Positions 1,848-56,078 of a stretch of DNA of 61,460 nucleotides are shown in pieces. The notes below the pieces were generated by a model, which saw only the letters and a list, made by a program, of their open reading frames with translations, was not told the DNA's origin and searched no databases. This DNA is from a virus. Its lineage: Duplodnaviria > Caudoviricetes. Each line of letters starts with the position of its first letter. Positions within the stretch are counted from its first letter, which is position 1. The stretch is from IMG/VR virus record IMGVR_UViG_3300025674_000039, positions 1 through 61,460 of that record. One strand, given 5' to 3'. Made by a program: the position numbers and the translations under genes.

Positions 1848-2222
1848 ATGCCATTTTACAAGTCTTTCCGGGATTATTTGTATAACTTACATGCATCTAA
1901 TTCAGGAGAAGCGCGGAGGATGTGGAAAGCATCTATTAAAGAAAAGTGGAATCACAAATGTGCATATTGTGGTTCAGATAAAGAAATCACAATCGACCAT
2001 ATAGTTCCTCAAGCATTAGGAGGAATTGATTTTTCCCCAAATGTTGTTGCTTGTTGTAGATCTTGTAATCACGACAAGGGACACGAAGATTGGAAAGATT
2101 GGTACAAAAGACAACCATTTTTCGATCCAAAACGTATGCATGACATTGTTGAGTGGATGAAACCACACAAAGAAAAAAACTCTTTACACAAATATCGTCC
2201 AAGAAAAACAAAAGTTTATTGA
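1848..2222 (+). CDS. HNH endonuclease
   Basis: CAYCG...TIDHIVPQALGG...NVVACCRSCNHDKG. Confidence 0.9.
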   Translation: MPFYKSFRDYLYNLHASNSGEARRMWKASIKEKWNHKCAYCGSDKEITIDHIVPQALGGIDFSPNVVACCRSCNHDKGHEDWKDWYKRQPFFDPKRMHDIVEWMKPHKEKNSLHKYRPRKTKVY

Positions 2223-3519: not shown

Positions 3520-3870
3520 ATGGCAAATGCAGTTGAAACTCTAGAAAAAACAGAGCAGATTCAAATGGAACACTGGACTCAATTAGAAAGAGATGAATCT
3601 CCCAAAAGGTACGGATGCACTATCATGATTTCTAATGGGTCTTGGGAACAAGTTTGTACGACTGATGCACCATATGATGCAAAAATCGTTACATACTATG
3701 TTGACGGTCAAAAATGCCATGATTTGACTAGAAGTCAGAAAGAAGTACGTATCTTTGATATGTACTATGATAAGTTTGGTAAGAATCTCAAAAGCATTGA
3801 ATTTGGTTATGGTAAGGCAAATCCAAAGACCTGGGGATACGAAGCGCCAAAGGATAAAAAGAAGAAATAA
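3520..3870 (+). CDS. hypothetical cyanophage protein
   Basis: 116-aa ORF (IFDMYYDKFG...GYGKANPKTWG). Confidence 0.75.
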   Translation: MANAVETLEKTEQIQMEHWTQLERDESPKRYGCTIMISNGSWEQVCTTDAPYDAKIVTYYVDGQKCHDLTRSQKEVRIFDMYYDKFGKNLKSIEFGYGKANPKTWGYEAPKDKKKK

Positions 3871-3880
3871 ATCTTAAAAT

Positions 3881-3896
3881 TGTATCATAAGTTACA
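3881..3896. promoter_or_regulatory. NtcA-type binding site
   Basis: TGTA-TCATAAGT-TACA, a perfect GTA-N8-TAC with flanking T/A. Confidence 0.7.
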
Positions 3897-3903
3897 AAAC
3901 TAC

Positions 3904-3932
3904 TTGCATATATAGACCATAGGAGTTATAAT
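3904..3932 (+). promoter_or_regulatory. sigma70-type promoter
   Basis: TTGCAT (3904-3909), 17 nt spacer, TATAAT (3927-3932); predicted TSS about 3939. Confidence 0.75.
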
Positions 3933-3951
3933 ACTCTAGTACGTTCATCTC

Positions 3952-4152
3952 ATGCTCAGTATCTTACTGGCATTGACCTTAGCCCATCATGCAGACGGCA
4001 GCCCCTACGGGTGGCATATGTCGTGTGAAAGGTTTTTACAAAAACGAATTGAAATCCTAATGGATGACAATTTAGATAGACGATCTAAATATAATCTGAT
4101 AGGTTATTTTAGATCTAAAGTAGAAGGTCAATGTAATCAGACATTGACATGA
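3952..4152 (+). CDS. small protein embedded in riboswitch-like unit 1 (hydrophobic N-terminus, 2 Cys)
   Basis: 66-aa ORF; ATG and TGA both lie in the P2 stem TCTCATG/CATGAGA. Confidence 0.7.
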   Translation: MLSILLALTLAHHADGSPYGWHMSCERFLQKRIEILMDDNLDRRSKYNLIGYFRSKVEGQCNQTLT

Positions 4153-4187
4153 GACGCAAGTAAGTCGCGGAACGGAGCGTTCATCCC

Positions 4188-4349
4188 ATGATTGATCTTT
4201 TACTCTATGTCTCTATTGCCTGTCAAGATGCTGCCGATATGATCGGTCGTGTCAAGGCAAATGAATCCATGAGTAAAATTGTCAGAGCAGAGATTGTTGA
4301 AACTTTAAAAGAAGCAACACCTCAGTGTAAGTGGGACGCAAACGACTGA
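4188..4349 (+). CDS. small protein embedded in riboswitch-like unit 2 (53 aa, 2 Cys)
   Basis: Hand translation MIDLLLYVSIACQDAADMIGRVKANESMSKIVRAEIVETLKEATPQCKWDAND; GGAG at 4174-4177. Confidence 0.7.
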   Translation: MIDLLLYVSIACQDAADMIGRVKANESMSKIVRAEIVETLKEATPQCKWDAND

Positions 4350-4417
4350 AGGAACGGGGAAACGGATCCTGCGAAAGCAGAGAAGGTTAACTTTCCATTC
4401 TATTCAGGTAACGACAA

Positions 4418-4582
4418 ATGAACACACTTTCTTTAATCAAGAAGCAAATCGAAAAGCAAGCAGCTCTTCACGATGCTCAAATTATGATGACCACCTATCG
4501 TGGCGTCAAGTATGAGTGTCAGCAAGGAACTGATGAAGTGCATGGCACTTTCTGCTATCGCGGTCGTACTTACGTTAAGTGA
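4418..4582 (+). CDS. DUF4278 family protein (GifB/IF17-related)
   Basis: Hand translation MNTLSLIKKQIEKQAALHDAQIMMTTYRGVKYE...FCYRGRTYVK; two YRG motifs; AGGT SD. Confidence 0.8.
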   Translation: MNTLSLIKKQIEKQAALHDAQIMMTTYRGVKYECQQGTDEVHGTFCYRGRTYVK

Positions 4583-4589
4583 GGACGCC

Positions 4590-4685
4590 ATGCAAGCACT
4601 ACAAGTAGCAACATCAGTTTCTGTTTTAAGTATCGCTTTTCTAGGTATTCTTTACGGTGAATTAAACTTCTTATACAAGAGGTGA
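4590..4685 (+). CDS. 31-aa membrane peptide
   Basis: GAGG SD; MQALQVATSVSVLSIAFLGILYGELNFLYKR. Confidence 0.6.
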   Translation: MQALQVATSVSVLSIAFLGILYGELNFLYKR

Positions 4686-4688
4686 GAC

Positions 4689-4844
4689 ATGCTCAAAATC
4701 AAGATCTCATATGATCTTCCTGAGTATGATTCCGTGAAACATGATCCAGAAAAAGTATTTGCTTTTTTAACATATCGTGGAATTAATTATGCAAAATTGG
4801 TAAATCTCAAATCAAGGTCAATTTTGTCTCCACGAATTAAATGA
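4689..4844 (+). CDS. second YRG-motif (DUF4278-like) small protein
   Basis: Hand translation MLKIKISYDLPEYDSVKHDPEKVFAFLTYRGINYAK... (51 aa); GAGG SD. Confidence 0.65.
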   Translation: MLKIKISYDLPEYDSVKHDPEKVFAFLTYRGINYAKLVNLKSRSILSPRIK

Positions 4845-4868
4845 AGGGGTTGTACCCCTTCTTTTTTT
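4843..4868 (+). terminator. rho-independent terminator overlapping the next promoter
   Basis: GAAGGGGT-TGT-ACCCCTTC-T7; overlaps TTGTAC(4850)-17-TATGAT(4873) with an extended TG. Confidence 0.8.
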
Positions 4869-4898
4869 ATGCTATGATGGTGGAAACGTATCAAGGTC

Positions 4899-5069
4899 AT
4901 GGAGAGAGAACGACTTAAACTAATCGTAAGAAATCTAGAACTCCTTGTAGAATCTCTGAAGGTGGAGGTTTACTCTGATCCTAATTCTTACATTGATAAA
5001 AGAGAGAACTTTGATGATCCGCTAGAATATCAAGTTCAGTACGACGACGATGATGGTTATCCTGATTGA
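4899..5069 (+). CDS. hypothetical protein (56 aa)
   Basis: Hand translation MERERLKLIVRNLELLVESLKVEVYSD...DDDDGYPD. Confidence 0.75.
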   Translation: MERERLKLIVRNLELLVESLKVEVYSDPNSYIDKRENFDDPLEYQVQYDDDDGYPD

Positions 5070-5071
5070 AA

Positions 5072-5233
5072 ATGAGTAGAGCAAAAGATCTTATTAAGTT
5101 GCTTGAGCGTTTGATCAAGCAAGATCATCTTTATGATGCCGAAAGAATCAAAGAGATGAAAGCGCAACTTCGTGCTGTTAAAGAACAGGTCGAAGAAATG
5201 GAAAGGAACAATTCTAAAGGATTTGGTAAATGA
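5072..5233 (+). CDS. hypothetical coiled-coil protein (53 aa)
   Basis: Hand translation MSRAKDLIKLLERLIKQDHLY...SKGFGK; ATGA overlap with thyX. Confidence 0.75.
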   Translation: MSRAKDLIKLLERLIKQDHLYDAERIKEMKAQLRAVKEQVEEMERNNSKGFGK

Positions 5234-5902: not shown

Positions 5903-5923
5903 GATATAGTGTATGTTATATCT

Positions 5924-6490
5924 ATGAAAGCAATAACACTTAATGAGGGACAAAAATTTAATAGGTGGGAAGTTATAAGTTCTTCCCCCACAATTCAATA
6001 TTTTGGAACAAGTAACCGTCCTGTTAGATGTTTTCTATGTAAATGTGAATGTGGAGTAGAAAAATTAGTTAGAGGTGATTATCTAACACGAGGAACAAGT
6101 AAAAGTTGTGGTTGTCTTAGATCTGATAGAGCTAAGGAAACTGGAAGAAAACAAAAAACAATAGAATCTTACCACAATAAAATTTATGGTGATTGTAAAA
6201 GATCTGCTAAACACAGAGGAAAGGAGTGGTCTTTAACAAAAAAGGAACACTTTGACATTGTTACAAAACCTTGTTATTATTGTGGAGAACCTCCAATTTT
6301 AAGAGAAAGTAATGTTGGTATTCCATTCTCACATTGGGGGATAGACAGACAAGATAATAGTATTGGATATACTCCTAACAATTCAGTATCTTGCTGTCAT
6401 ATATGTAATACCATGAAAATGGATTTATCTCTAAATAAATTTTCTGAACACATAAAAAAACTCTCTAAAAGATCTTTAGAGTGGAACTAA
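5924..6490 (+). CDS. free-standing HNH-type homing endonuclease
   Basis: N-terminal CKCECG...SKSCGC Zn module; C-terminal CYYCG...GIDRQDNSIGYTPNNSVSCCHICNTMK; AT-rich; has its own late promoter. Confidence 0.85.
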   Translation: MKAITLNEGQKFNRWEVISSSPTIQYFGTSNRPVRCFLCKCECGVEKLVRGDYLTRGTSKSCGCLRSDRAKETGRKQKTIESYHNKIYGDCKRSAKHRGKEWSLTKKEHFDIVTKPCYYCGEPPILRESNVGIPFSHWGIDRQDNSIGYTPNNSVSCCHICNTMKMDLSLNKFSEHIKKLSKRSLEWN

Positions 6491-13482: not shown

Positions 13483-14283
13483 GTGGCAGAGTTCAATGTA
13501 CCACAACCAAAAAAGATATTTGAGTTCAGAGACAAGATAACAAATCTTGCACAAACCTCATTTTACTATGTTCAATTTGGTGGTCTTGGTTCTCTGGCAA
13601 GTGGTTCTAGATTAAAACAATATTTGCGATCCAGAGGGATAGATGATAATTATATTAATGAAATAGGTCTTTTGTGTAGTAGTGCTGTACTTCCTACAAC
13701 GCAGTTAGCAACTGCTGAAGTCAATAGTAACTATATGGGAATTACCCAGACATTTGCACATAGAAGACAATTCCAGGATGTTACTTTAGAGTTTTACGTA
13801 GATAAAACTTATAAATCTCTGAAGTTCTTTGAATATTGGATGGACTTTATTGCTGGAGGATCTCATATTGAATATAGGTATCCTCAATTTGGAGAATTGC
13901 CTGCAATTGATAAGAATCAATCAGGAGATGATTATTTTATTAGAATGAATTATCCTGATGATTATAAATCCAATTGCACTCACATAGTTAAATTTGAGAG
14001 GGATCATAATTCAGTTCATTCTATAGTGTACAATTTTTATGGAATGTATCCTTATAATATCGCATCTATTCCAGTGAGTTATGGTGCATCAGAACTGTTG
14101 AAGATGTCTGTGTCATTTAAGATTGATCGATACACTGTTGTGAGAGCAAATGATTACGCTTGGGTAAATGATGCATCTAATGATAGAAAACCATATATTC
14201 TGGGTAAGGATCAATACTTTAATCTTCCAGTATTTTTAAGAGACATTGGTCAAACTATTATTGATGGAATTAAGTCACTTTGA
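13483..14283 (+). CDS. tail tube-like baseplate protein (gp54/gp19 family)
   Basis: GTG start; VTLEFYVD...KFFEYWMDFI, YP.NIASIPVSY...MSVSF. Confidence 0.75.
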   Translation: MAEFNVPQPKKIFEFRDKITNLAQTSFYYVQFGGLGSLASGSRLKQYLRSRGIDDNYINEIGLLCSSAVLPTTQLATAEVNSNYMGITQTFAHRRQFQDVTLEFYVDKTYKSLKFFEYWMDFIAGGSHIEYRYPQFGELPAIDKNQSGDDYFIRMNYPDDYKSNCTHIVKFERDHNSVHSIVYNFYGMYPYNIASIPVSYGASELLKMSVSFKIDRYTVVRANDYAWVNDASNDRKPYILGKDQYFNLPVFLRDIGQTIIDGIKSL

Positions 14284-14319: not shown

Positions 14320-15045
14320 ATGCCATTACCATCTATTTCTGTTCCTACATATTCTCTTGAGATTCCATCTACTAACAAGAAGATTAAGTATAGACCTTTT
14401 CTTGTAAGAGAAGAGAAACTTCTAATCATCGCCAAAGAGAGTCAGGATCCTGAACAAGTTAATCAAGCAATTAAGGATGTCCTTCAGAATTGTATCCTGA
14501 CGAAGGGAGTTGATATTGAGAAACTGACTAGTTTTGATATTGAATATCTTTTCCTAAATGTTCGTGGTAAATCTGTAGGAGAAGAAGTCGAAGTTTTGAT
14601 TACTTGTCTTGATGATATGAAGACCCAGGTTCCTGTTGCTATCAATCTTGATGACATCAAAGTTGTGCAAAATGAAAGACACACACGCGACATTGAACTT
14701 GATGAGGCATTCAAGTTGAGGATGAAGTATCCATCACTCGAACAATTTGTCAAGCAAAATTATGATGTTGGACCTAAGCAGAGTGATCAGTTGGAATCTA
14801 CATTTGCTATGATTGCTGATTGTATTGAGCAAGTATATAATGATGAAGAATCTTTTAGTGCTGCTGATGAAGATCCAAAACACATTAGAGAGTGGATTGA
14901 GATGTTATCTCCGCAGCATCTTGAAAAAGTTAATGACTTCTTTGAGACCATGCCAAAACTATCTCATACTGTAGAAATTATTAATCCAAACACTGGAGTT
15001 AGAAATGATATTGTCCTTGAGGGTCTGAATAGTTTTTTAGCGTAG
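14320..15045 (+). CDS. gp26: baseplate hub assembly protein (gp26 family)
   Basis: MPLP..PTY.L, YRPFLVREEK.L, FDIEYLFLNVRGKSVGE, FFETMPKL; GATAAATA late promoter at 14287. Confidence 0.9.
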   Translation: MPLPSISVPTYSLEIPSTNKKIKYRPFLVREEKLLIIAKESQDPEQVNQAIKDVLQNCILTKGVDIEKLTSFDIEYLFLNVRGKSVGEEVEVLITCLDDMKTQVPVAINLDDIKVVQNERHTRDIELDEAFKLRMKYPSLEQFVKQNYDVGPKQSDQLESTFAMIADCIEQVYNDEESFSAADEDPKHIREWIEMLSPQHLEKVNDFFETMPKLSHTVEIINPNTGVRNDIVLEGLNSFLA

Positions 15046-15047
15046 GT

Positions 15048-15221
15048 ATGGCTCACGAAACTCTTGAGTCATACTACAAAACTAACTTTAGTTTGATTAA
15101 CCATCATAAATATTCATTAACTGAGATTGAAAATATGATCCCTTGGGAAAGGGAAGTTTATATTGGATTATTAAACATTCATATTGAAGAGGAAAACAAG
15201 AAGAATCAGCAGAATGGCTAG
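15048..15221 (+). CDS. gp51: short gp51-like hub assembly protein
   Basis: Hand translation MAHETLESYYKTNFSLINHHKYSLTEIENMIPWEREVYIGLL... (57 aa). Confidence 0.88.
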   Translation: MAHETLESYYKTNFSLINHHKYSLTEIENMIPWEREVYIGLLNIHIEEENKKNQQNG

Positions 15222-16836
15222 TTCAATGATACCAGATCCTTGGGATACTCCAAAACCTGTTAATCCAATTCCACAAAATAAAGGGATCCTAAGTCCTGAG
15301 ATGAAGAAGTTGGTTACAAACCAACAAAGTGTCAATGTCTCTGCCATTAGGAGTGATTTACTTCGTGTAGAAAGAAAAAGAGATGCGGTAGACGGGCAAA
15401 CAACCGCAGTAATTTCTCAGCAAAGTGGTGTTCTTGAAAACTTCAATAAGAATATTATTGCTCTTAGAGTTGATGTTAATAAACTGGGTACAGGGTTGGA
15501 TGGTATATCACGACTTATCTTCCAACAGAATCAATTAGAAGTTGATAGAATACGTAAAGAGCAAGAAGAATTAAGATTATCTGCGGAGAGATCAACCAGA
15601 AGTGGAAGAGAGAACGCTATCGAGCAGCGTGTTAATAATGCTCTTCTTGTACCAGTACAGGCAATAACTCCAAAGTTAACATCTTTATTTGATAGGATTA
15701 AGCAAGCACTTGCTATTTTGTTTGGTGGTTGGTTAACTAATCAACTTATAGAATTACTTCAAGCAAACCAAGAAGATAATGTTGAGGGTGTTAAAAAGAT
15801 AAGTGAGAATATTCAAAAAAATATACTAAAATTAATTGGTGGTCTGGTTGCTGTTGGAGCAGGGTTTAAAATTTTAAAAGGAGTAATAGGTAATACTGCA
15901 AGAGGATTAACAAGTCTTTTTATTTCACGACCTATTGCTGCTGCAACAAGAGGATTGGGAAGAGCACTAAACAATCCTAGATTGGCAAATACAAGAGCAC
16001 CAAAACCAAACTTTAGACCAACAGGCTTGACTGGATTAAGTAAGGTTATGGCAGCATTAGATGTCTTTCTCAACCTTAGAAACGGAGAATTCACTGATGC
16101 TAGTATAGCTGCTCTTGCTGTAAAGGCACCAAATCGAGTTGTAAGAACAATGGCAGGTGCTGGATTTATTGCCGATCAAATTGCTGAAATGTTTGGATTG
16201 AATTTATTTGGTAAAAACCCTAACGAAGAAGTTGAGGGTAGACCAAATGAAACATTCCTCAAGAATATTGTAACAGAAACTCAGATACTTAAAGAGGAAG
16301 AACAAAAAAATAATTCACAAACTTCTTCAGAACCACAGGAACCACAACCTGAATCATCTACTGGAGCAGCAGTTGAACCTCAAGAAACAAAAGTAACAGA
16401 AATATCCTCTGCAGACATAGTTCAACCACAAGAAACAATAACTGGACAACCTGTAAACCAACCAGAGCAACAACAATCTCCTGCACCTGTGGCGCAACCT
16501 ATGGAGACAATTACTGGGCAACCTACAGTATCTCCACAAGAAACGGAGCAGGTTGAAGTAGCAGAAGCTATGTCTCCTGGAAGTCCAGAACCTTCAGTAC
16601 AATCTCCTGCGAAGGTTGAGATATCACCTGTTGCTATGACTCCTCAAAGAGTTGGTGAAGTTCCTGCTGCAAGACCAGAGGTTGCATTAATAAGAACATC
16701 TTCTCCTGCTCAAGGACCACAGACAAGACCTCCAGTTAGTGAAGGTGAATTGAATCCAGTTCCTAAGATTGGTTCATCTAATCCTGATAATTTCCATAGA
16801 TTATATTCTGAACTCGTTTATAACGTAGTAGTATAA
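15214..16836 (+). CDS. tape-measure/baseplate hub-like protein (coiled-coil plus P/Q/E-rich tail)
   Basis: Helical N-terminal half, low-complexity C-terminus; follows gp51. Confidence 0.55.
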   Translation: MASSMIPDPWDTPKPVNPIPQNKGILSPEMKKLVTNQQSVNVSAIRSDLLRVERKRDAVDGQTTAVISQQSGVLENFNKNIIALRVDVNKLGTGLDGISRLIFQQNQLEVDRIRKEQEELRLSAERSTRSGRENAIEQRVNNALLVPVQAITPKLTSLFDRIKQALAILFGGWLTNQLIELLQANQEDNVEGVKKISENIQKNILKLIGGLVAVGAGFKILKGVIGNTARGLTSLFISRPIAAATRGLGRALNNPRLANTRAPKPNFRPTGLTGLSKVMAALDVFLNLRNGEFTDASIAALAVKAPNRVVRTMAGAGFIADQIAEMFGLNLFGKNPNEEVEGRPNETFLKNIVTETQILKEEEQKNNSQTSSEPQEPQPESSTGAAVEPQETKVTEISSADIVQPQETITGQPVNQPEQQQSPAPVAQPMETITGQPTVSPQETEQVEVAEAMSPGSPEPSVQSPAKVEISPVAMTPQRVGEVPAARPEVALIRTSSPAQGPQTRPPVSEGELNPVPKIGSSNPDNFHRLYSELVYNVVV

Positions 16837-18728
16837 TGGCAATACAAACATCTCTTAGGAAATCATCAACTAGTATTGAAAAGATTGCTGCTTCTCTGAA
16901 TCAAACCAGGGAAAGTATTCAAGGTGTTCAGGTTTCTGTCGATAGCCTTAGCAAGATGATAGAGACAAATACTAAGTTTAAATCGCAATTATATGCTAGG
17001 TCAGAAATCTTATCTTACAGAATAACTGAGGCAAGGAATAGAAAGGAGAAAGAAGATAAGTTAGAAGCAAATAGAGTAGGAACACCTAATCCAAATCTTG
17101 CATTGGGATTTGGGGCAAATTCTGCTGGTGGTATTTTCGGAAAATTAATAGCATTTGCATCTTACTTGACTGCTGGATGGATTATCAATAATTTTCAAGT
17201 ATGGCAGCAGGTTGGTGGTGAATTTATAAACAGATTGACAATTCTGAAAAATAATTTGGTGAATTTTGGACCTGCACTTTTAGATGTATTCTCTAAATTA
17301 AATTCAGCATTAACATCTTCATTAGTATCGATATTAACTTTAGATTTCTCTGCATTTACTGAAGGGCAAGTTAAAGAAGATTTTGATGCACTCAATGATG
17401 CAGTTAGAGCCTTAACACAAAATATCCAAGATTCTTATACTGCTCTTACCACACCACTGACTGAATCAGTAGAAGGCGGTGGTTCATCTGACGGAGGTGG
17501 TGGAGATACTTCGGGAGGATATGATCAATCATCTGGATCTGGAGTAGGTACAGTGGAACAGCAGGCATTACTTTCTACGATTAGATTTGCAGAAGGAACT
17601 GCTGGACCTACTGGTTATAGTATGTTCTTTGGTGATAGAACTGGTGAAGCAAAGTATGGTGATCTTACAAATAAATCTATTGCAGAAGTTGAAGAACTGG
17701 TAACCAAGTTCTTACAGGATCCTCAATCTAAGTTTGGTAATGGTCAAAGATCTGCTGCTGTTGGTGCATATCAATTCATTGACATCACTGGATTAGCAAA
17801 ATCTGTTGGTATGAGCACCGATAGAAATTTTGATAAGGAGTTTCAGGATGAGTTAGCACTTAGATTAGCAGCAAAGCAGGGAGTAAGTCCCGAAGTTCTT
17901 AGGAGAGAAGGACTTAGTGATTCTGTAATTAAAAAACTTTCTCCTAAGTGGGCATCATTCCCAGGAAATAATTATGGACAACCAACTAAAGCAATAACAT
18001 CCCTTAGAGAAACTTACAATAGAGCAGTAGAAAGATCTAGAAATACCACTACAAGTTCAAATATTTCCGGATATCGTGTTACTCGTAGTGGTCGGAACAT
18101 ACCATCACTAAGTGCATTGCCAGATCATCATAGTAACACTAGAACTTCTGATGGACGTTTAGTTCAGGACTTTACACTGTTTAAAGGTGATAAGTTCTTG
18201 AATCTTCCTGTTCCTTCTCCAGTTTCGGGAACAGTTACATGGGCAGGTAATGCTGGTAATGGTGGATTATGGGTTGAAATTCAATCTCCAGAGGGTAAAG
18301 TCGAGATGGGTCACTTCAACTCCCTTCGTGTTAAGAAGGGAGATAAGGTCGGTGTTGGATCTATTTTAGGTCTTCAAGGTCATAGTGGAAGGACAATGCC
18401 TTCTGGACCTGATGGAACTCATATTCATATTCAGGCACCAGATAGTGTCCTTGAGAGATATATTCAGATGATTAACTCTAATTCATTCTCTGAGACAAAA
18501 GTATCATCTGCAAATATTAATCCATCTCCTTCAAGAAATGCTGAAACTAGTAATATTGCATCTAGTAAGGCGGCACAAGTTATAGCAATTGATGCATCTC
18601 AGATTCCTGCGGAGAATAATTATTCTCCAATGCCTGCAGAATCTCCTATGGTTGCATCTATTTCTGAAGGTCAACTGTTAAATAGATTAAACAAGAACAA
18701 ACTATTAACTGATCTAGCATATACCTGA
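16836..18728 (+). CDS. tail-associated protein with lysozyme-like and M23 peptidase domains
   Basis: IRFAEGT...YSMFFG...SAAVGAYQF...WASFP (lambda-R/GH104-like); PSPVSGTV...GH...VKKGDKV...GHSG...HIH (M23). Confidence 0.85.
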   Translation: MAIQTSLRKSSTSIEKIAASLNQTRESIQGVQVSVDSLSKMIETNTKFKSQLYARSEILSYRITEARNRKEKEDKLEANRVGTPNPNLALGFGANSAGGIFGKLIAFASYLTAGWIINNFQVWQQVGGEFINRLTILKNNLVNFGPALLDVFSKLNSALTSSLVSILTLDFSAFTEGQVKEDFDALNDAVRALTQNIQDSYTALTTPLTESVEGGGSSDGGGGDTSGGYDQSSGSGVGTVEQQALLSTIRFAEGTAGPTGYSMFFGDRTGEAKYGDLTNKSIAEVEELVTKFLQDPQSKFGNGQRSAAVGAYQFIDITGLAKSVGMSTDRNFDKEFQDELALRLAAKQGVSPEVLRREGLSDSVIKKLSPKWASFPGNNYGQPTKAITSLRETYNRAVERSRNTTTSSNISGYRVTRSGRNIPSLSALPDHHSNTRTSDGRLVQDFTLFKGDKFLNLPVPSPVSGTVTWAGNAGNGGLWVEIQSPEGKVEMGHFNSLRVKKGDKVGVGSILGLQGHSGRTMPSGPDGTHIHIQAPDSVLERYIQMINSNSFSETKVSSANINPSPSRNAETSNIASSKAAQVIAIDASQIPAENNYSPMPAESPMVASISEGQLLNRLNKNKLLTDLAYT

Positions 18729-36209: not shown

Positions 36210-36281
36210 GGGAATGTCGCCTAAAGGTAAAGGCCCTCTGCTTATAACGGAGTGATCTGGGTTCAAGTCCCAGCATTCCTA
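36210..36281 (+). tRNA. tRNA-Ile(UAU)
   Basis: Acceptor GGGAATG/CATTCCT; anticodon arm CTCTG-CTTATAA-CGGAG; TTCAAGT T-loop; no encoded CCA. Confidence 0.9.
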
Positions 36282-36284
36282 TTC

Positions 36285-36357
36285 GCAGGTCTAGCAATTT
36301 GGTAAATGCAGCGTTCTCATAAAGCGCCTAAAAAGAGTTCGATTCTCTTGACCTGCA
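36285..36357 (+). tRNA. tRNA with CAU anticodon (elongator Met or Ile2)
   Basis: GCAGGTC/GACCTGC; GCGTT-CTCATAA-AGCGC; lacks initiator features. Confidence 0.88.
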
Positions 36358-36362
36358 CCTAC

Positions 36363-36436
36363 GCCCGAGTGACCCAGCGGAATGAGGTTCTCGACTTAAA
36401 ATCGAGCAGTCGCGGGTTCGAATCCCGCCTCGGGTA
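36363..36436 (+). tRNA. tRNA-Leu(UAA) with short variable loop
   Basis: GCCCGAG/CTCGGGT; CTCGA-CTTAAAA-TCGAG; GCGGG-TTCGAAT-CCCGC. Confidence 0.9.
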
Positions 36437-48631: not shown

Positions 48632-49336
48632 ATGAAGGCAAAAGATTTGTATAGGCAGAAATATAAGATCATTAAGTTCTTTAATGAGCAACAACTTGAT
48701 ATTCTCCGTAAAGATATTAAAACTCTTAGGTGGGAACCAGGTCTTGTATCTCTTAACTACGATAATAAAAAAATTGCTCTTAAAGTCAAGAGTAATTTTC
48801 AAGCAGATTATGATTCTGCTAAATTTTATAGTATGATTGATACATCTAGAGAGTTTCATGAGTTCGTTGAACCCAAAACTTCTACTAATGTCATGATTAG
48901 TAGGACACCTACTGGTGGTTATTATAAACCACATACGGACTGGGAAGGATTGGGTCATTATAGTACAACTATCTTTTTAAATGATCCTGATACTTATTCT
49001 GGTGGAGAGTTGTGCATACTTCCAAATCCGTATGAAGATGAACTTAAAATCAAACTTCCAGCAGGTTGGGGTGTAACATACGAAACAGGTATTCCTCATA
49101 GAGTTGCTACTGTAACTCATGGTGAGAGATTAGTTTCTATATATTGGACAGAATCCAATTTTGGTGACTTGAATGACTTAGATCGCTATAGATATCTTTG
49201 CGATATGTATGAATGGTGTGAAGAGCATTACGCGCATAAAGTTTTTGAGAACTGCCATGAGTTCAACAATGATGCACAGATGTACTTTCAAAGAAAGAGT
49301 AAAGAGTTATCCAAAAAATATATTTCTATGAAGTAA
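48632..49336 (+). CDS. 2OG-Fe(II) oxygenase (PKHD/PiuC-like)
   Basis: GGYYKPHTD, STTIFLNDPDTYSGGEL, PHRV..VT.GERLV. Confidence 0.9.
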   Translation: MKAKDLYRQKYKIIKFFNEQQLDILRKDIKTLRWEPGLVSLNYDNKKIALKVKSNFQADYDSAKFYSMIDTSREFHEFVEPKTSTNVMISRTPTGGYYKPHTDWEGLGHYSTTIFLNDPDTYSGGELCILPNPYEDELKIKLPAGWGVTYETGIPHRVATVTHGERLVSIYWTESNFGDLNDLDRYRYLCDMYEWCEEHYAHKVFENCHEFNNDAQMYFQRKSKELSKKYISMK

Positions 49337-49914
49337 TGTATATTGGTACTGTTTCTGAAGATCTTGCTGATAAGATCGATACATATGTCACTAAAAACAA
49401 TGATGACATACTTTGGGTGTATAGTGAAGAGACATCTGGTTACACACCAGGTGAATATGATGCTATTCCAATTCCTGGATCTGGTGAGACGTTTCAGTTT
49501 GAACATCGCATTTGTTCCGAGACCTACGGTGTAGTTGATCGGAAAGCATGGACTGAAATTATGGTTCCCATCATGATTGAGTATCAGAAATATGACTTCC
49601 CTCCCATGAATAATGTATTCCGATCAAAAATCAACATGCTCACTATTGATCCTAGGGAAGAGATTGTCTGTAATACACCTCATGTTGATGATGTTGATCC
49701 ACATTGGGTCATGATTTATTATATAAATGATAGTGATGGTCCTACAACATTTTTTGATCAATATTATGATGGTCAGAAAAAGGCACCAAAATTTAGTAGT
49801 TCTGTAACTCCAAAAAAGGGTAAATTTGTCGTATTTAATGGACTTCAATTTCATGCAAGTTCTGCTCCCCGACAAACTACGCAACGTTGCGTAATTAACA
49901 TTAATTTTAGGTAA
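49336..49914 (+). CDS. 2OG-Fe(II) oxygenase
   Basis: PHVD, IYYINDSDG, PKKG..VVF, HASS.P, RCVININF. Confidence 0.85.
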   Translation: MYIGTVSEDLADKIDTYVTKNNDDILWVYSEETSGYTPGEYDAIPIPGSGETFQFEHRICSETYGVVDRKAWTEIMVPIMIEYQKYDFPPMNNVFRSKINMLTIDPREEIVCNTPHVDDVDPHWVMIYYINDSDGPTTFFDQYYDGQKKAPKFSSSVTPKKGKFVVFNGLQFHASSAPRQTTQRCVININFR

Positions 49915-55295: not shown

Positions 55296-55474
55296 TTGAC
55301 AGAAGTTTTCTTGATGACATGACACATGAGAACAAAGAAGTTCTAGCAGAAGATTGTGAAGATTTTCTGCTTCATCGTCACATTCCTCTCTATTCACATT
55401 CGTATGATGAGATCATCATGCAGGCAATAAAAGAAGGTTATCAATTACATAAGTGCGATAGACATGTTCGATAA
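55292..55474 (+). CDS. hypothetical protein
   Basis: 60-aa ORF with ATGA overlap. Confidence 0.65.
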   Translation: MIDRSFLDDMTHENKEVLAEDCEDFLLHRHIPLYSHSYDEIIMQAIKEGYQLHKCDRHVR

Positions 55475-56078
55475 GTTTATTTGGCAAAAACGTAATGCAC
55501 TTTCTCCTAATTTTTGCAATGCTTTGATTGCAAAGTTTGAGGCAGATGATAATAAGGAGCAAGGCATTACTGGTGCAGGATTAAATACTAAGTTTAAGAT
55601 ATCAACAGATTTGAATCTATCTCTTTGGGATGAATACCAATATGAAGATGAGGTATTGTTTGAATCCATAAAAAAAGGAATCAATGAATACTGTTCATAT
55701 CACAGAACTCTTCATCCTGCTTTGGATATGCAAAATAATCCAAATGTTGAGCTTGAAGATAGTGGATACCAACTGCAACGTACCAGAGTTGGTGAATACT
55801 ACAAATGGCACAATGATTTTGGTATTTACAAAAATGGTGTGCGTCTAGCGACATACATTTGGTATTTGAATGATGTTCATAAAGGTGGAGAAACTGAATT
55901 TATTGATGGGACTTTGATTAAACCAGAGCAGGGTAAGTTGATGATCTTCCCTGCCTACTGGAACTATCATCACCAGGGAAGACCACCGATCAGTAATACG
56001 AAATATATTGTAACAGGTTGGATGGTAGTCGATCCTGTGCTGGAATTGAAGAAATATAAAAACGGGACACTTGAATAA
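55464..56078 (+). CDS. 2OG-Fe(II) oxygenase (prolyl-4-hydroxylase-like)
   Basis: YKWHND, YIWYLNDV..GGETEF, KPEQGKLMIFP, HQGRPP...KY. Confidence 0.92.
   Translation: MFDKFIWQKRNALSPNFCNALIAKFEADDNKEQGITGAGLNTKFKISTDLNLSLWDEYQYEDEVLFESIKKGINEYCSYHRTLHPALDMQNNPNVELEDSGYQLQRTRVGEYYKWHNDFGIYKNGVRLATYIWYLNDVHKGGETEFIDGTLIKPEQGKLMIFPAYWNYHHQGRPPISNTKYIVTGWMVVDPVLELKKYKNGTLE

What the first reader, a model, noticed from the sequence alone, without database searches (positions are those of the whole stretch)
15031..15050. Candidate -1 programmed frameshift fusing gp26 to gp51, analogous to lambda gpG/gpGT
Seen: gp26 ends agT TTT TTA gcg TAG, a correctly phased U_UUU_UUA heptamer (15033-15039). The -1 frame reads TTT TTT AGC GTA GGT ATG, stop-free and in frame with the 57-aa gp51 ORF. 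The pair lies between a tail-tube-like gene and tape-measure-like genes. Known: this is the position and mechanism of tail assembly chaperone frameshifts in many long-tailed phages, and T4's own gp51 is a much longer protein. Inference: the short gp51 is the C-terminal extension of a roughly 300-aa frameshift product. I am not aware of this being annotated for T4-like cyanophages.
Basis: partly seen in the sequence, partly recalled or inferred. Interest (0 to 1): 0.75.

Follow-up and report, generated by a model that had tools for sequence, protein, structure and literature searches.

The report
Frameshift in T4-like tail chaperone gene
One tail-assembly gene of this uncultured T4-like cyanophage very probably makes both a 241-residue and a 300-residue protein, because some ribosomes slip back one base on TTTTTTA; the device is conserved across T4-like phages and was apparently described for them in 2022, so this is a new example with a slightly unusual signal.

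Summary
The gp26-like ORF (14320-15045) ends AGT TTT TTA GCG TAG. T_TTT_TTA (15033-15039) is in phase. The -1 frame opens exactly at 15033, after a TAG at 15030-15032, and runs into the 57-codon "gp51" ORF.

Comparison supports a programmed shift:
- 36 of 40 gp26 clusters (62 readable junctions) keep an in-phase T_TTT_TTN and a -1 extension of 47-65 codons.
- 24 of those 36 have no start codon for the extension.
- The codon before the run always ends in T, although it changed at least 11 times on the tree.
- T4 makes the long form from a separate gene (51, a gp26 paralogue plus this extension). It keeps Phe-Phe but has no T run.
- The N-domain model matches solved tail assembly chaperones best (Z 7.3-7.9).
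- In this window a GAGGG lies 9 nt upstream and a strong hairpin starts 2-7 nt downstream. Both fit a ribosomal signal.

It is not new as a kind. Two papers cite Vladimirov, Gautam and Davidson (Virology 2022, which I could not read) for tail chaperone genes and poly-T slip signals in T4-like phages. This scan has also noted the same thing in at least 269 other genomes.

There is no direct evidence here from proteins or ribosome profiling.

The parts
13483..14283 (+). Tail-tube-like gene (gp54-type tube initiator position) directly upstream
   Evidence: Pfam PF23849 Phage_TTP_2, E 2.5e-20; phrog_45 'tail tube', E 1.1e-39
14320..15045 (+). gp26-like ORF, the short chaperone form (241 aa), zero frame
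   Evidence: PF12322 T4_baseplate, E 1.4e-69; phrog_150, E 3e-74. AlphaFold2 model pLDDT 85.2. Residues 1-96 match 3fgx, 3klu and 2ob9 (HK97 tail assembly chaperone) at Z 7.9, 7.4 and 7.3
15019..15023 (+). GAGGG, a Shine-Dalgarno-like run 9 nt upstream of the heptamer; possible stimulator
   Evidence: Sequence. A GAGG/GGAGG/AAGG/AGGG-type word lies 12-15 nt before the heptamer in 33 of 36 clusters. GAG is preferred over GAA at this Glu codon in 19 of 26 clusters, against 213 of 809 Glu codons in the gene bodies. The function is inferred
15030..15032 (+). TAG in the -1 frame, closing that frame just before the heptamer
   Evidence: Sequence; -1 frame open from 15033
15033..15039 (+). Slippery heptamer T_TTT_TTA, in phase with the gp26-like ORF
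   Evidence: In-phase T_TTT_TTN is kept in 36 of 40 clusters. The last base is C in 29, T in 4, A in 2 and G in 1
15043..15045 (+). Zero-frame stop TAG, one codon after the heptamer
   Evidence: In 34 of 36 clusters exactly one codon separates the heptamer from the stop
15042..15077 (+). RNA hairpin downstream of the heptamer. The conserved core stem is 15047-15055 paired with 15065-15073, 7 nt after the heptamer. It buries ATG 15048-15050
   Evidence: MFE -18.8 kcal/mol, z -4.25. The site lies at the 0.2 percentile of 60-nt stretches of the locus. In the 11-sequence clade 81.8% of cells are paired, 3 pairs show changes on both sides, and the ATG is paired in 11 of 11
15039..15221 (+). -1 frame extension: 60 codons plus the stop (15219-15221). 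The 57-codon 'gp51' ORF starts at ATG 15048
   Evidence: phrog_634 'baseplate hub assembly catalyst', E 2.2e-26. It also matches the C-end of the gp26 family profile phrog_150 (positions 239-277 of 282). It aligns to T4 gp51 residues 200-243. The model is three helices, pLDDT 79
15211..16836 (+). Tape-measure-like gene (541 aa) overlapping the end of the extension
   Evidence: Assigned by position and composition only
16836..18728 (+). Second tape-measure-like gene with lysozyme-like and M23 peptidase parts
   Evidence: PF01551, E 1.9e-8; phrog_90, E 3e-28

Best explanation
The gp26-like gene is the tail (baseplate-hub) assembly chaperone of a T4-like cyanophage, and it encodes two proteins. 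Most ribosomes stop at TAG 15043 and give the 241-residue short form. A minority slip back one base while tRNA-Phe (P site, UUU) and tRNA-Leu (A site, UUA) sit on U_UUU_UUA at 15033-15039. They then read AGC GUA GGU AUG and onward to the stop at 15219, which gives a 300-residue long form. This long form is collinear with T4 gp51: a gp26-type body plus a ~57-residue, three-helix C-terminal extension. The slip is probably helped by a GAGGG 9 nt upstream that can pair with 16S rRNA, and by a hairpin whose conserved stem starts 7 nt downstream, as in E. coli dnaX. By analogy with lambda gpG/gpGT, both forms would coat the tape-measure protein and the extension would recruit another tail component. 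Shown here: the signal, its phase, its conservation, the missing start codons in relatives, the homology to T4 gp26 and gp51, and the chaperone-like fold. Inferred: that ribosomes rather than RNA polymerase make the shift, its efficiency, the role of the two flanking elements, and the binding partners.
For: (1) Anatomy: the in-phase heptamer lies in a 13-base shift window bounded by a -1 frame TAG and the zero-frame TAG. The background rate is 3 of 16,715 in-phase positions. (2) Conservation: of 67 sources, 62 have readable junctions, forming 40 clusters at 90% identity. 36 of these have in-phase T_TTT_TTN and a -1 extension of 47-65 codons. They include Kyanoviridae, Straboviridae (KVP40-like, Aeromonas, Citrobacter and Cronobacter phages) and Rhizobium, Pseudomonas, Acidovorax and Stenotrophomonas phages. 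(3) 24 of the 36 have no ATG/GTG/TTG in the first 10 codons from the start of the heptamer, and 16 of those have none in 13 codons. The residue aligned with Met-1 of this window's ORF is Ile, Leu or Phe there. (4) Selection acts on the bases and not only on the protein. The codon before the run is AGT, TCT, GCT, GAT, GGT, AAT or ACT. It always ends in T (36 of 36) through at least 11 changes on the tree, against 43% NNT codons overall. The first Phe codon is always TTT, against 59% overall. T4 gene 26 needs no shift and keeps Phe-Phe as GAG TTC TTT, with no run. The one clade that lost the run (3 Vibrio phages) has an ATG overlapping the stop. (5) T4 gp51 (249 aa) matches PF12322 over residues 1-201 (E 3.9e-52). 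Its residues 200-243 match a profile of the -1 extensions from profile position 2, so it is collinear with the predicted product. Genes 26 and 51 are divergent in T4. (6) Three features favour a ribosomal over a transcriptional shift. The run is exactly 6 T in 32 of 36 clusters, and its 5' edge is always in the same phase. The upstream GAGG shows a synonymous GAG preference (19 of 26 against 26% background, binomial p 9e-7, not corrected for kinship). The downstream hairpin has z -4.25 and 3 compensatory pairs in the clade. (7) Fold: the top four of 48,161 chains are 3fgx, 3klu, 2ob9 (HK97 tail assembly chaperone) and 5ir0, at Z 7.9, 7.4, 7.3 and 5.3; the next row has Z 4.5. (8) Literature: Sullivan et al. 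2010 (PMC3037559, passages) noted that cyanophage gp51 lacks the first ~200 residues. PRFect (PMC10885494, passage) and the phage Adele paper (PMC12846349, passages) cite Vladimirov et al. 2022 for short and long chaperone forms and for poly-T slip signals in T4-like phages.
Against: There is no direct evidence for the long protein in this or any relative. RNA-library contigs did not bridge the site, and no proteomic or ribosome-profiling data were available. This window does have an ATG at 15048, two bases after the stop, so the 57-aa peptide could also be made on its own by termination-reinitiation. The last base A (UUA, Leu) is rare: 2 of 36 clusters. After the slip the Leu tRNA would face a U:U wobble, so efficiency may be low. 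The outermost hairpin pairs begin only 2 nt after the heptamer. Downstream structure is not general: RNAalifold found no shared pairs in 28 sequences, and 12 of 36 junctions fold worse than the median stretch of their locus. The GAGG overlaps conserved Leu-Glu-Gly codons, and none of the statistics is corrected for phylogeny. Foldseek found no PDB match at E <= 0.001, and Z below 8 can arise from common arrangements (note). [quoted passage not shown] PRFect reads this as the two-gene solution of T4, but I could not check whether the authors argue against ribosomal slippage in general.
Confidence: 0.72

Rival explanations
1. Transcriptional slippage: RNA polymerase adds one extra U on the T6 run, so a minority of mRNAs carry the two ORFs in one frame and encode the same 300-residue protein. 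In that case the junction would read Phe-Phe rather than Phe-Leu.
For: The conserved element is a homopolymer. 4 of 36 clusters have 7 or 8 T. In-frame versions of the gene occur as single database entries; one of them (P0005) reads exactly as a U7 message would, though these may equally be homopolymer sequencing errors. The title of Vladimirov et al. [quoted passage not shown] My RNA data cannot exclude it.
Against: The run is only 6 T in 32 of 36 clusters and never more than 8. From recalled literature, bacterial polymerase slippage needs roughly 8-9 or more. The run's 5' edge is phase-locked to the codon frame in 36 of 36 clusters, which polymerase slippage does not require. The upstream GAGG with its synonymous bias and the downstream hairpin are elements that act on ribosomes. 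PRFect reads the 2022 title as meaning separate genes in T4, and the Adele paper cites the same work for '-1 frameshift signals'.
Confidence: 0.12
2. There is no recoding in this phage. The 57-aa ORF is translated on its own from ATG 15048, by ribosomes that terminate at TAG 15043 and restart two bases later. The heptamer would then be a relic of an ancestral signal.
For: The ATG is present at 15048, 2 nt after the stop. 12 of 36 heptamer-bearing clusters have an ATG at or next to the stop, and start-codon presence changed at least 6 times on the tree. Three Vibrio phages use only this arrangement. 8 of 21 fetched records annotate the ORF from such a junction ATG.
Against: The ATG is buried in the conserved hairpin stem, paired in 11 of 11 clade members. 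It has no purine-rich run at the usual 5-10 nt distance. The Met aligns with an internal Leu, Ile or Phe in relatives that cannot start there. The heptamer, the T-ending codon before it and the -1 frame are all intact here and in the 97%-identical relative L001. A free 57-aa peptide would lack the ~200-residue body that T4 gp51 carries. Both routes may coexist.
Confidence: 0.1
3. Coincidence of coding constraints: the T run exists only because both reading frames need Phe-Phe at this point, and the two ORFs are simply adjacent genes.
For: Phe-Phe is conserved at this position even in T4 gp26 (EFFELL), and a related VF occurs in gp51. The GAGG overlaps conserved Leu-Glu-Gly codons.
Against: T4 encodes the same Phe-Phe as TTC TTT after GAG, without a run. 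The third base of the preceding, variable codon is T in 36 of 36 clusters. 24 of 36 clusters have no way to start the second ORF.
Confidence: 0.03

Closest known systems
[quoted passage not shown]
   Same: The same gene family (T4 gp26/gp51 type), read as a short and a long chaperone form. According to the Adele paper, poly-T sequences at the 3' end of the short-form gene are the -1 slip signals. According to PRFect, some T4-like phages carry a short gene plus a separate fused long gene instead.
   Different: I could not read the paper, so I do not know which phages, signals or mechanism it covers. This window adds an uncultured freshwater/aquatic phage with the rare last base A, a strong downstream hairpin and an upstream GAGGG.
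Phage T4 gp26 (208 aa) and gp51 (249 aa), hub assembly chaperones (Leiman et al. 2010, PMC3004832, Table 2 passage)
   Same: Both T4 proteins and the window's ORF match PF12322. The window's extension matches the gp51 C-terminus. The predicted 300-aa product is collinear with gp51.
   Different: T4 makes the two forms from two divergently transcribed paralogous genes, and gene 26 has no T run. Here one gene would make both forms.
Lambda gpG/gpGT and the conserved -1 frameshift of tail chaperone genes in long-tailed phages (Levin 1993 and Xu 2004, as summarised in Atkins et al. 2016, PMC5009743, passages)
   Same: The position is between the tube gene and the tape-measure gene. There is a short form plus a -1 extended form, neither is expected in the virion, and the heptamer lies just before the stop. 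The fold of the N-domain resembles the HK97 chaperone 2ob9.
   Different: There is no sequence similarity. The body here is larger (241 aa, with extra domains after the ~95-residue chaperone-like part). The heptamer is U_UUU_UUA and not G_GGA_AAG (recalled). The review says the frameshift is conserved 'except T4'.
Phage P2 gpE/gpE+E'
   Same: A contractile-tailed phage with a -1 shift on a T6N heptamer in the chaperone gene upstream of the tape measure.
   Different: An unrelated sequence family. The details are recalled and were not checked here.
E. coli dnaX tau/gamma -1 frameshift signal (recalled)
   Same: A three-part layout: a Shine-Dalgarno-like run about 10 nt upstream, a heptamer, and a stem-loop a few nt downstream.
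   Different: dnaX uses A_AAA_AAG and its shifted frame ends at once. Here the shifted frame adds a 60-residue domain. The roles of the flanking elements are untested.

Membership tests
Pfam PF12322 T4_baseplate (T4 gp26/gp51 family) | Match to the family profile above its curated cut-off over the whole body | tested here: met
   234.6 bits against a cut-off of 24.5, residues 9-240 on profile positions 2-218 of 219. T4 gp26 and gp51 both match the same profile
Pfam PF12322 T4_baseplate (T4 gp26/gp51 family) | The long form carries the gp51-type C-terminal extension | tested here: met
   The 57-aa ORF matches phrog_634 at E 2.2e-26 and phrog_150 positions 239-277 of 282. A profile of the -1 extensions matches T4 gp51 residues 200-243 at E 1.9e-8
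Tail assembly chaperone with programmed -1 frameshift (lambda G/GT type) | The gene lies between the tail tube gene and the tape-measure gene | tested here: inconclusive
   The upstream tube-like gene is confirmed (PF23849, phrog_45).
Tail assembly chaperone with programmed -1 frameshift (lambda G/GT type) | A second ORF in the -1 frame overlaps the 3' end of the first and does not need its own start codon | tested here: met
   The -1 relation holds in all 36 heptamer-bearing clusters, and 24 of the 36 have no start codon. This window itself has an ATG
Tail assembly chaperone with programmed -1 frameshift (lambda G/GT type) | An in-phase X_XXY_YYZ heptamer lies inside the overlap | tested here: met
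   T_TTT_TTA at 15033-15039; 36 of 40 clusters have the heptamer
Tail assembly chaperone with programmed -1 frameshift (lambda G/GT type) | Chaperone fold as in the HK97 chaperone (PDB 2ob9) | tested here: met
   Residues 1-96 of the model match 3fgx (Z 7.9), 3klu (Z 7.4) and 2ob9 (Z 7.3; rmsd 3.4-4.2 over 83-86 residues). These are the top rows of 48,161 chains, and the next unrelated row has Z 4.5. The Z values are modest. That 3fgx and 3klu are chaperone relatives is recalled and was not shown by a call
Tail assembly chaperone with programmed -1 frameshift (lambda G/GT type) | Both forms are made in infected cells at a fixed low ratio | not testable with these tools
   This needs protein or ribosome-profiling data
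Tail assembly chaperone with programmed -1 frameshift (lambda G/GT type) | The body binds the tape-measure protein, and the extension binds a tube or hub protein | not testable with these tools
   This needs pull-downs or a solved complex
Transcriptional slippage site | A homopolymer run long enough for polymerase realignment (about 8-9 or more in bacteria; recalled) | tested here: not met
   The run is 6 T here and in 32 of 36 clusters, 7 T in 3 clusters and 8 T in 1
dnaX-type three-part ribosomal frameshift signal | A Shine-Dalgarno-like run about 10 nt upstream and a stable stem-loop 5-9 nt downstream of the heptamer | tested here: met
   GAGGG at 15019-15023, with a 9-nt spacer. The hairpin spans 15042-15077 with its conserved core starting 7 nt downstream. 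The sequence features are present; their effect on slippage is untested

The most novel reading that the evidence does not exclude
This phage may carry a complete, dnaX-like ribosomal signal (GAGGG, U_UUU_UUA, hairpin) whose A-site codon UUA is read by the phage's own tRNA-Leu(UAA), encoded at 36363-36436. If so, the phage itself would supply the tRNA that slips and could tune the ratio of short to long chaperone. Because the last base is A and not C, this phage is also one of the few T4-like phages in which the junction residue tells ribosomal slippage (Leu) from polymerase slippage (Phe). It could therefore settle which mechanism T4-like tail chaperone genes use.
Probability: 0.1. Interest if true: 0.55.

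Novelty: new member of a known kind. Interest (0 to 1): 0.3.

Why it matters
The finding explains an old oddity. Cyanophage "gp51" is only a fifth the length of T4 gp51 (Sullivan et al. 2010) because it is the frameshift-only tail of a gp26-type chaperone. It brings T4-like phages into line with the tail-chaperone frameshift that a 2016 review still described as conserved in long-tailed phages "except T4".

The practical consequence is for annotation:
- None of the 21 fetched T4-like phage records joins the two ORFs.
- 8 records start the second ORF at an internal codon.
- 5 records miss the second ORF entirely.
- The family is still named "baseplate hub subunit" or "assembly catalyst".

As a kind of system this is already in print (2022), and this scan has seen it many times. 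The value of this window is limited to its variant signal: the A-ending heptamer, the hairpin and the upstream GAGGG.

Tried and rejected
1. RNA evidence. One search listed 5 metatranscriptome runs that hold parts of the stretch, and laid four of them (Logan contigs). Identical pieces end at 15022 (X16) and begin at 15039 (X17), and no contig bridges the heptamer. Nothing can therefore be said about U insertions or co-transcription, and contigs would hide minor variants anyway.

2. Binding of the extension. One complex prediction (57-aa extension with the upstream tube-like protein, both as alignments A5 and A4) gave "no answer" (score 0.00, mark 0.32). This is no evidence either way.

3. A structure shared by all relatives. 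RNAalifold on 28 junctions predicted no pairs. Only the window's own clade shares the hairpin.

4. Sequence search of solved structures with the gp26 profile found 0 matches at E <= 10. Foldseek against the PDB found none at E <= 0.001, with 2ob9 only at rank 17 and E 0.92.

5. NCBIfam has no family for any of the four proteins tested.

6. A full-length model of a natural in-frame form. Alignment A6 misaligned the end of the body with the start of the extension, so I did not fold it.

7. The tail tube gene gp19 (PF06841) was sought in the phage's own record. The record is only this 61-kb window, estimated 28% complete, and has no match.

8. The window's tRNA-Leu(TAA) gene has no DNA match in S-SRM01, syn9 or three fragments. 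This does not show that those phages lack such a tRNA.

9. Literature. Four searches found no paper holding all their terms that reports the shift: gp26+gp51+frameshift (8 unrelated papers); cyanophage+ribosomal frameshift+baseplate hub (set to list papers holding at least 2 of the 3 terms; none of the 20 listed, of 54 found, holds all three); baseplate hub assembly+frameshift (0 papers); slippery+baseplate hub+T4-like (0 papers). The 2022 paper surfaced only through the reference list of PRFect. It is not held in the library.

10. IME-SM1 (L052) has only 5 T and a +1 relation between the ORFs. Its congener Mendera has the normal T6 and -1 relation, so I treat IME-SM1 as a probable homopolymer error. 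I left it out of the tree.
Full report
**What is there.** The window is a 61-kb fragment of a T4-like, cyanophage-type myovirus with 38% G+C. It carries transaldolase, PhoH, gp32, gp59, gp53, gp48, gp2, gp4, gp5-like and tail-fibre genes. The record behind it is only this fragment, estimated 28% complete.

On the + strand the gene order is:
- a tail-tube-like gene at 13483-14283 (PF23849, phrog_45);
- a gp26-like ORF at 14320-15045 (PF12322, E 1.4e-69; phrog_150);
- a 57-codon ORF at 15048-15221 (phrog_634 "baseplate hub assembly catalyst", E 2.2e-26);
- two tape-measure-like genes at 15211-16836 and 16836-18728.

The gp26-like ORF ends AGT TTT TTA GCG TAG, so T_TTT_TTA at 15033-15039 is in phase. 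The -1 frame has TAG at 15030-15032, opens at 15033, and reads TTT TTT AGC GTA GGT ATG into the 57-codon ORF. The shifted product would have 300 residues. In-phase T_TTT_TTN is rare in this window: 3 of 16,715 in-phase positions in 53 likely genes, and 1 of 53 genes has it in its last five codons.

**Comparison.** A tblastn search with the gp26-like protein found 707 phage records. I fetched 45 IMG/VR loci and 21 phage records chosen across the identity range, plus T4 itself.

Of the 67 sources including the window, 62 have a readable junction, and they fall into 40 clusters at 90% protein identity. 36 clusters have an in-phase T_TTT_TTN inside an open -1 frame that continues for 47-65 codons. 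The last base is C in 29, T in 4, A in 2 (this window's clade and Rhizobium phage RHph_I1_18) and G in 1.

The four exceptions are:
- three Vibrio phages that form one clade, have no run, and carry an ATG overlapping the stop (TAATG);
- Stenotrophomonas phage IME-SM1, which has 5 T and an aberrant frame relation. Its congener Mendera is normal.

In 24 of the 36 clusters there is no ATG, GTG or TTG in the first ten codons from the start of the heptamer, and in 16 of these there is none in 13 codons. The residue aligned with this window's Met is Ile, Leu or Phe there. In those phages the conserved extension can only be translated by a change of frame.

**Is the run selected as DNA or only as Phe-Phe?** The codon before the run encodes Ser, Ala, Asp, Gly, Asn or Thr, but it always ends in T (36 of 36). 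Its identity changed at least 11 times on a tree of 39 representatives, with IME-SM1 left out. NNT codons are 43% of codons in this window, and TTT is 59% of Phe codons, yet the first Phe of the run is always TTT.

T4 provides a natural control. Its gp26 ends Gly-Leu-Lys-Glu-Phe-Phe-Glu-Leu-Leu, encoded GAG TTC TTT, with no run. T4 makes the long form from a separate gene.

**Relation to T4.** T4 gp26 (208 aa) and gp51 (249 aa) both match PF12322, and gp51 does so over residues 1-201. gp51 alone matches the whole phrog_150 profile, including the part that the window's 57-aa ORF matches. A profile built from 39 distinct -1 frame extensions aligns to gp51 residues 200-243, starting at profile position 2. 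T4 gp51 is therefore collinear with the predicted frameshift product. Genes 26 and 51 are adjacent but divergent in T4.

This accounts for the remark by Sullivan et al. 2010 that cyanophage and marine vibriophage gp51 lack the first ~200 residues (PMC3037559, passages). Leiman et al. 2010 list gp26 and gp51 as hub assembly chaperones (PMC3004832, passages).

**Fold.** An AlphaFold2 model of the 241-aa protein was built from a 19-sequence alignment (pLDDT 85.2, pTM 0.78).
- Foldseek found no PDB match at E <= 0.001.
- An all-against-representatives search put 3fgx (Z 7.9), 3klu (Z 7.4), 2ob9 "HK97 tail assembly chaperone" (Z 7.3) and 5ir0 (Z 5.3) on top for residues 1-96. The next row had Z 4.5. 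The scores are modest, but the grouping of the top rows is telling. That 3fgx and 3klu belong to the chaperone family is my recollection and not a call result.
- Against predicted viral structures there are 75 matches at E <= 0.001. Among the 50 rows listed, the named ones are called baseplate hub subunit, baseplate protein or assembly chaperone, and none is called tail assembly chaperone.
- The extension alone models as three helices (pLDDT 79).

**Ribosome or polymerase?** Three features point to the ribosome.
1. The run is exactly six T in 32 of 36 clusters (seven in 3, eight in 1), and its 5' edge is always in the same codon phase.
2. A GAGG-type word lies 12-15 nt before the heptamer in 33 of 36 clusters. 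At the Glu codon that supplies it, GAG is used in 19 of 26 cases, against 213 of 809 Glu codons (26%) in the gene bodies (binomial p 9e-7, not corrected for kinship). In this window GAGGG sits at 15019-15023, 9 nt upstream.
3. The 60 nt after the heptamer fold unusually well here: -18.8 kcal/mol, z -4.25, at the 0.2 percentile of the locus. In the window's 11-sequence clade the hairpin is 81.8% paired, against 29-49% when the 3' partners are slid. It has three pairs with changes on both sides, and the covariation score was reached by 1 of 500 shuffles. Its conserved core starts 7 nt after the heptamer and buries the ATG of the 57-codon ORF, which is paired in 11 of 11 sequences.

There are also results against. 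Structure is not general: no consensus pairs were found in 28 sequences, the median percentile over 36 distinct junctions is 0.14, 15 junctions lie below 0.1, and 12 lie above 0.5. I have no RNA or protein data, because the RNA-library contigs stop on either side of the run.

Because the last base here is A, the two mechanisms predict different junction residues in this phage: Leu for a ribosomal slip and Phe for polymerase slippage. This is a practical discriminator.

**Database forms.** A search for longer proteins containing the extension returned 45 hits of 101-302 aa. Most carry PF12322 plus PF28602, a family that is not in the local Pfam copy, and nearly all are single sequences on single contigs.

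Of the six sequences I printed:
- one (P0005) reads exactly as the predicted product does across the junction;
- others switch frame a few codons earlier, or show garbled stretches, as homopolymer or long-read errors would produce;
- one divergent lineage (P0044; 4 sequences, 5 contigs) looks like a genuine in-frame fusion.

None carries a descriptive name from its source.

**Annotation.** In the 21 fetched T4-like phage records, no CDS at this junction is flagged as joined. 8 records annotate the second ORF from an ATG at the junction, 8 from a start further downstream (which truncates the conserved part), and 5 do not annotate it at all.

**Prior knowledge.**
- Atkins et al. 2016 state that the G-T frameshift is conserved among long-tailed phages "except T4" (PMC5009743, passage).
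- The PRFect paper says that some T4-like phages carry one short gene and one fused long gene instead of frameshifting, citing Vladimirov, Gautam and Davidson 2022 (PMC10885494, passage).
- I could not obtain the 2022 paper itself. Four other citing papers that I opened gave nothing on this: three cite it only in their reference lists, and one merely holds the search terms.
- My own searches for the shift under gp26/gp51 terms found nothing.
- This scan has noted the same device before on other DNA: 299 notes in at least 269 genomes. One of those notes says no paper reports it, which the citations above contradict.

**Verdict.** I put about 0.85 on a recoded ~300-residue long form being made. 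Of that, about 0.72 falls on ribosomal -1 slippage and about 0.12 on polymerase slippage. Independent initiation at ATG 15048 may coexist with recoding; I give it about 0.1 as the only route.

As a kind of system this is already described for T4-like phages. This window is a new member with a rare A-ending heptamer and a clear flanking hairpin and GAGGG. I score interest at 0.3.

Noticed in passing
window 36210-36436 (+): Three adjacent phage tRNA genes: Ile(TAT), Met- or Ile2-type (CAT) and Leu(TAA). tRNA-Leu(UAA) reads UUA, the A-site codon of this phage's unusual heptamer. TTA makes up 24% of Leu codons in 23 genes of the window, so codon usage alone can explain the tRNA. No DNA match to this tRNA gene was found in S-SRM01, syn9 or three fragments.
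   Followed up: partly
L052 (Stenotrophomonas phage IME-SM1, KR560069.1) 1900-2013: The run has 5 T instead of 6, so the annotated 'gp26' runs on for 28 unrelated codons and the extension lies in the +1 frame. The congener Mendera (L064) has T6 and the normal -1 layout. IME-SM1 is probably a homopolymer sequencing error.
   Followed up: yes
L051, L053, L058 (Vibrio phages D531, 1.244.A and YC): These three form one clade that has lost the T run and starts the extension at an ATG overlapping the stop (TAATG). They look like a switch from recoding to ordinary translational coupling.
   Followed up: partly
protein P0044 (292 aa; 4 sequences on 5 contigs): This divergent lineage has the gp26-type body and the extension in a single frame. 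It may be a natural fusion like T4 gp51 outside the T-even phages. I did not check whether a separate short-form gene accompanies it.
   Followed up: no
L035-L042 clade (IMG/VR loci), three bases upstream of the T run: A second in-phase heptamer, A_AAT_TTT, overlaps the T_TTT_TTC, giving AAAATTTTTTC, in five clusters. This may be a tandem slip site.
   Followed up: no
window 15211-16836 and 16836-18728 (+): Two consecutive tape-measure-like genes. The first has a Pro/Gln/Glu-rich C-terminal third and no Pfam match. The second combines a coiled N-terminus with lysozyme-like and M23 peptidase parts.
   Followed up: no
window 3868-5229: About 1.36 kb with no ORF of 70 codons or more, lying just upstream of a thymidylate-synthase ORF. 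That ORF matches only positions 371-583 of the 866-position profile phrog_85. No Rfam family or tRNA was found in the gap.
   Followed up: no
window 1848-2219 and 5909-6487 (+); 48632-49333, 49336-49911 and 55464-56075 (+): Two HNH-type endonuclease genes lie among the metabolic and replication genes. Three ORFs match the 2OG-Fe(II) oxygenase family phrog_61; for 49336-49911 this is only a weak second match (E 7.9e-7) behind phrog_274, DNA endonuclease V.
   Followed up: no
precomputed domains: Proteins containing the extension carry PF28602.1, a Pfam family that is absent from the local Pfam copy. Its name might show how Pfam now labels this domain.
   Followed up: partly
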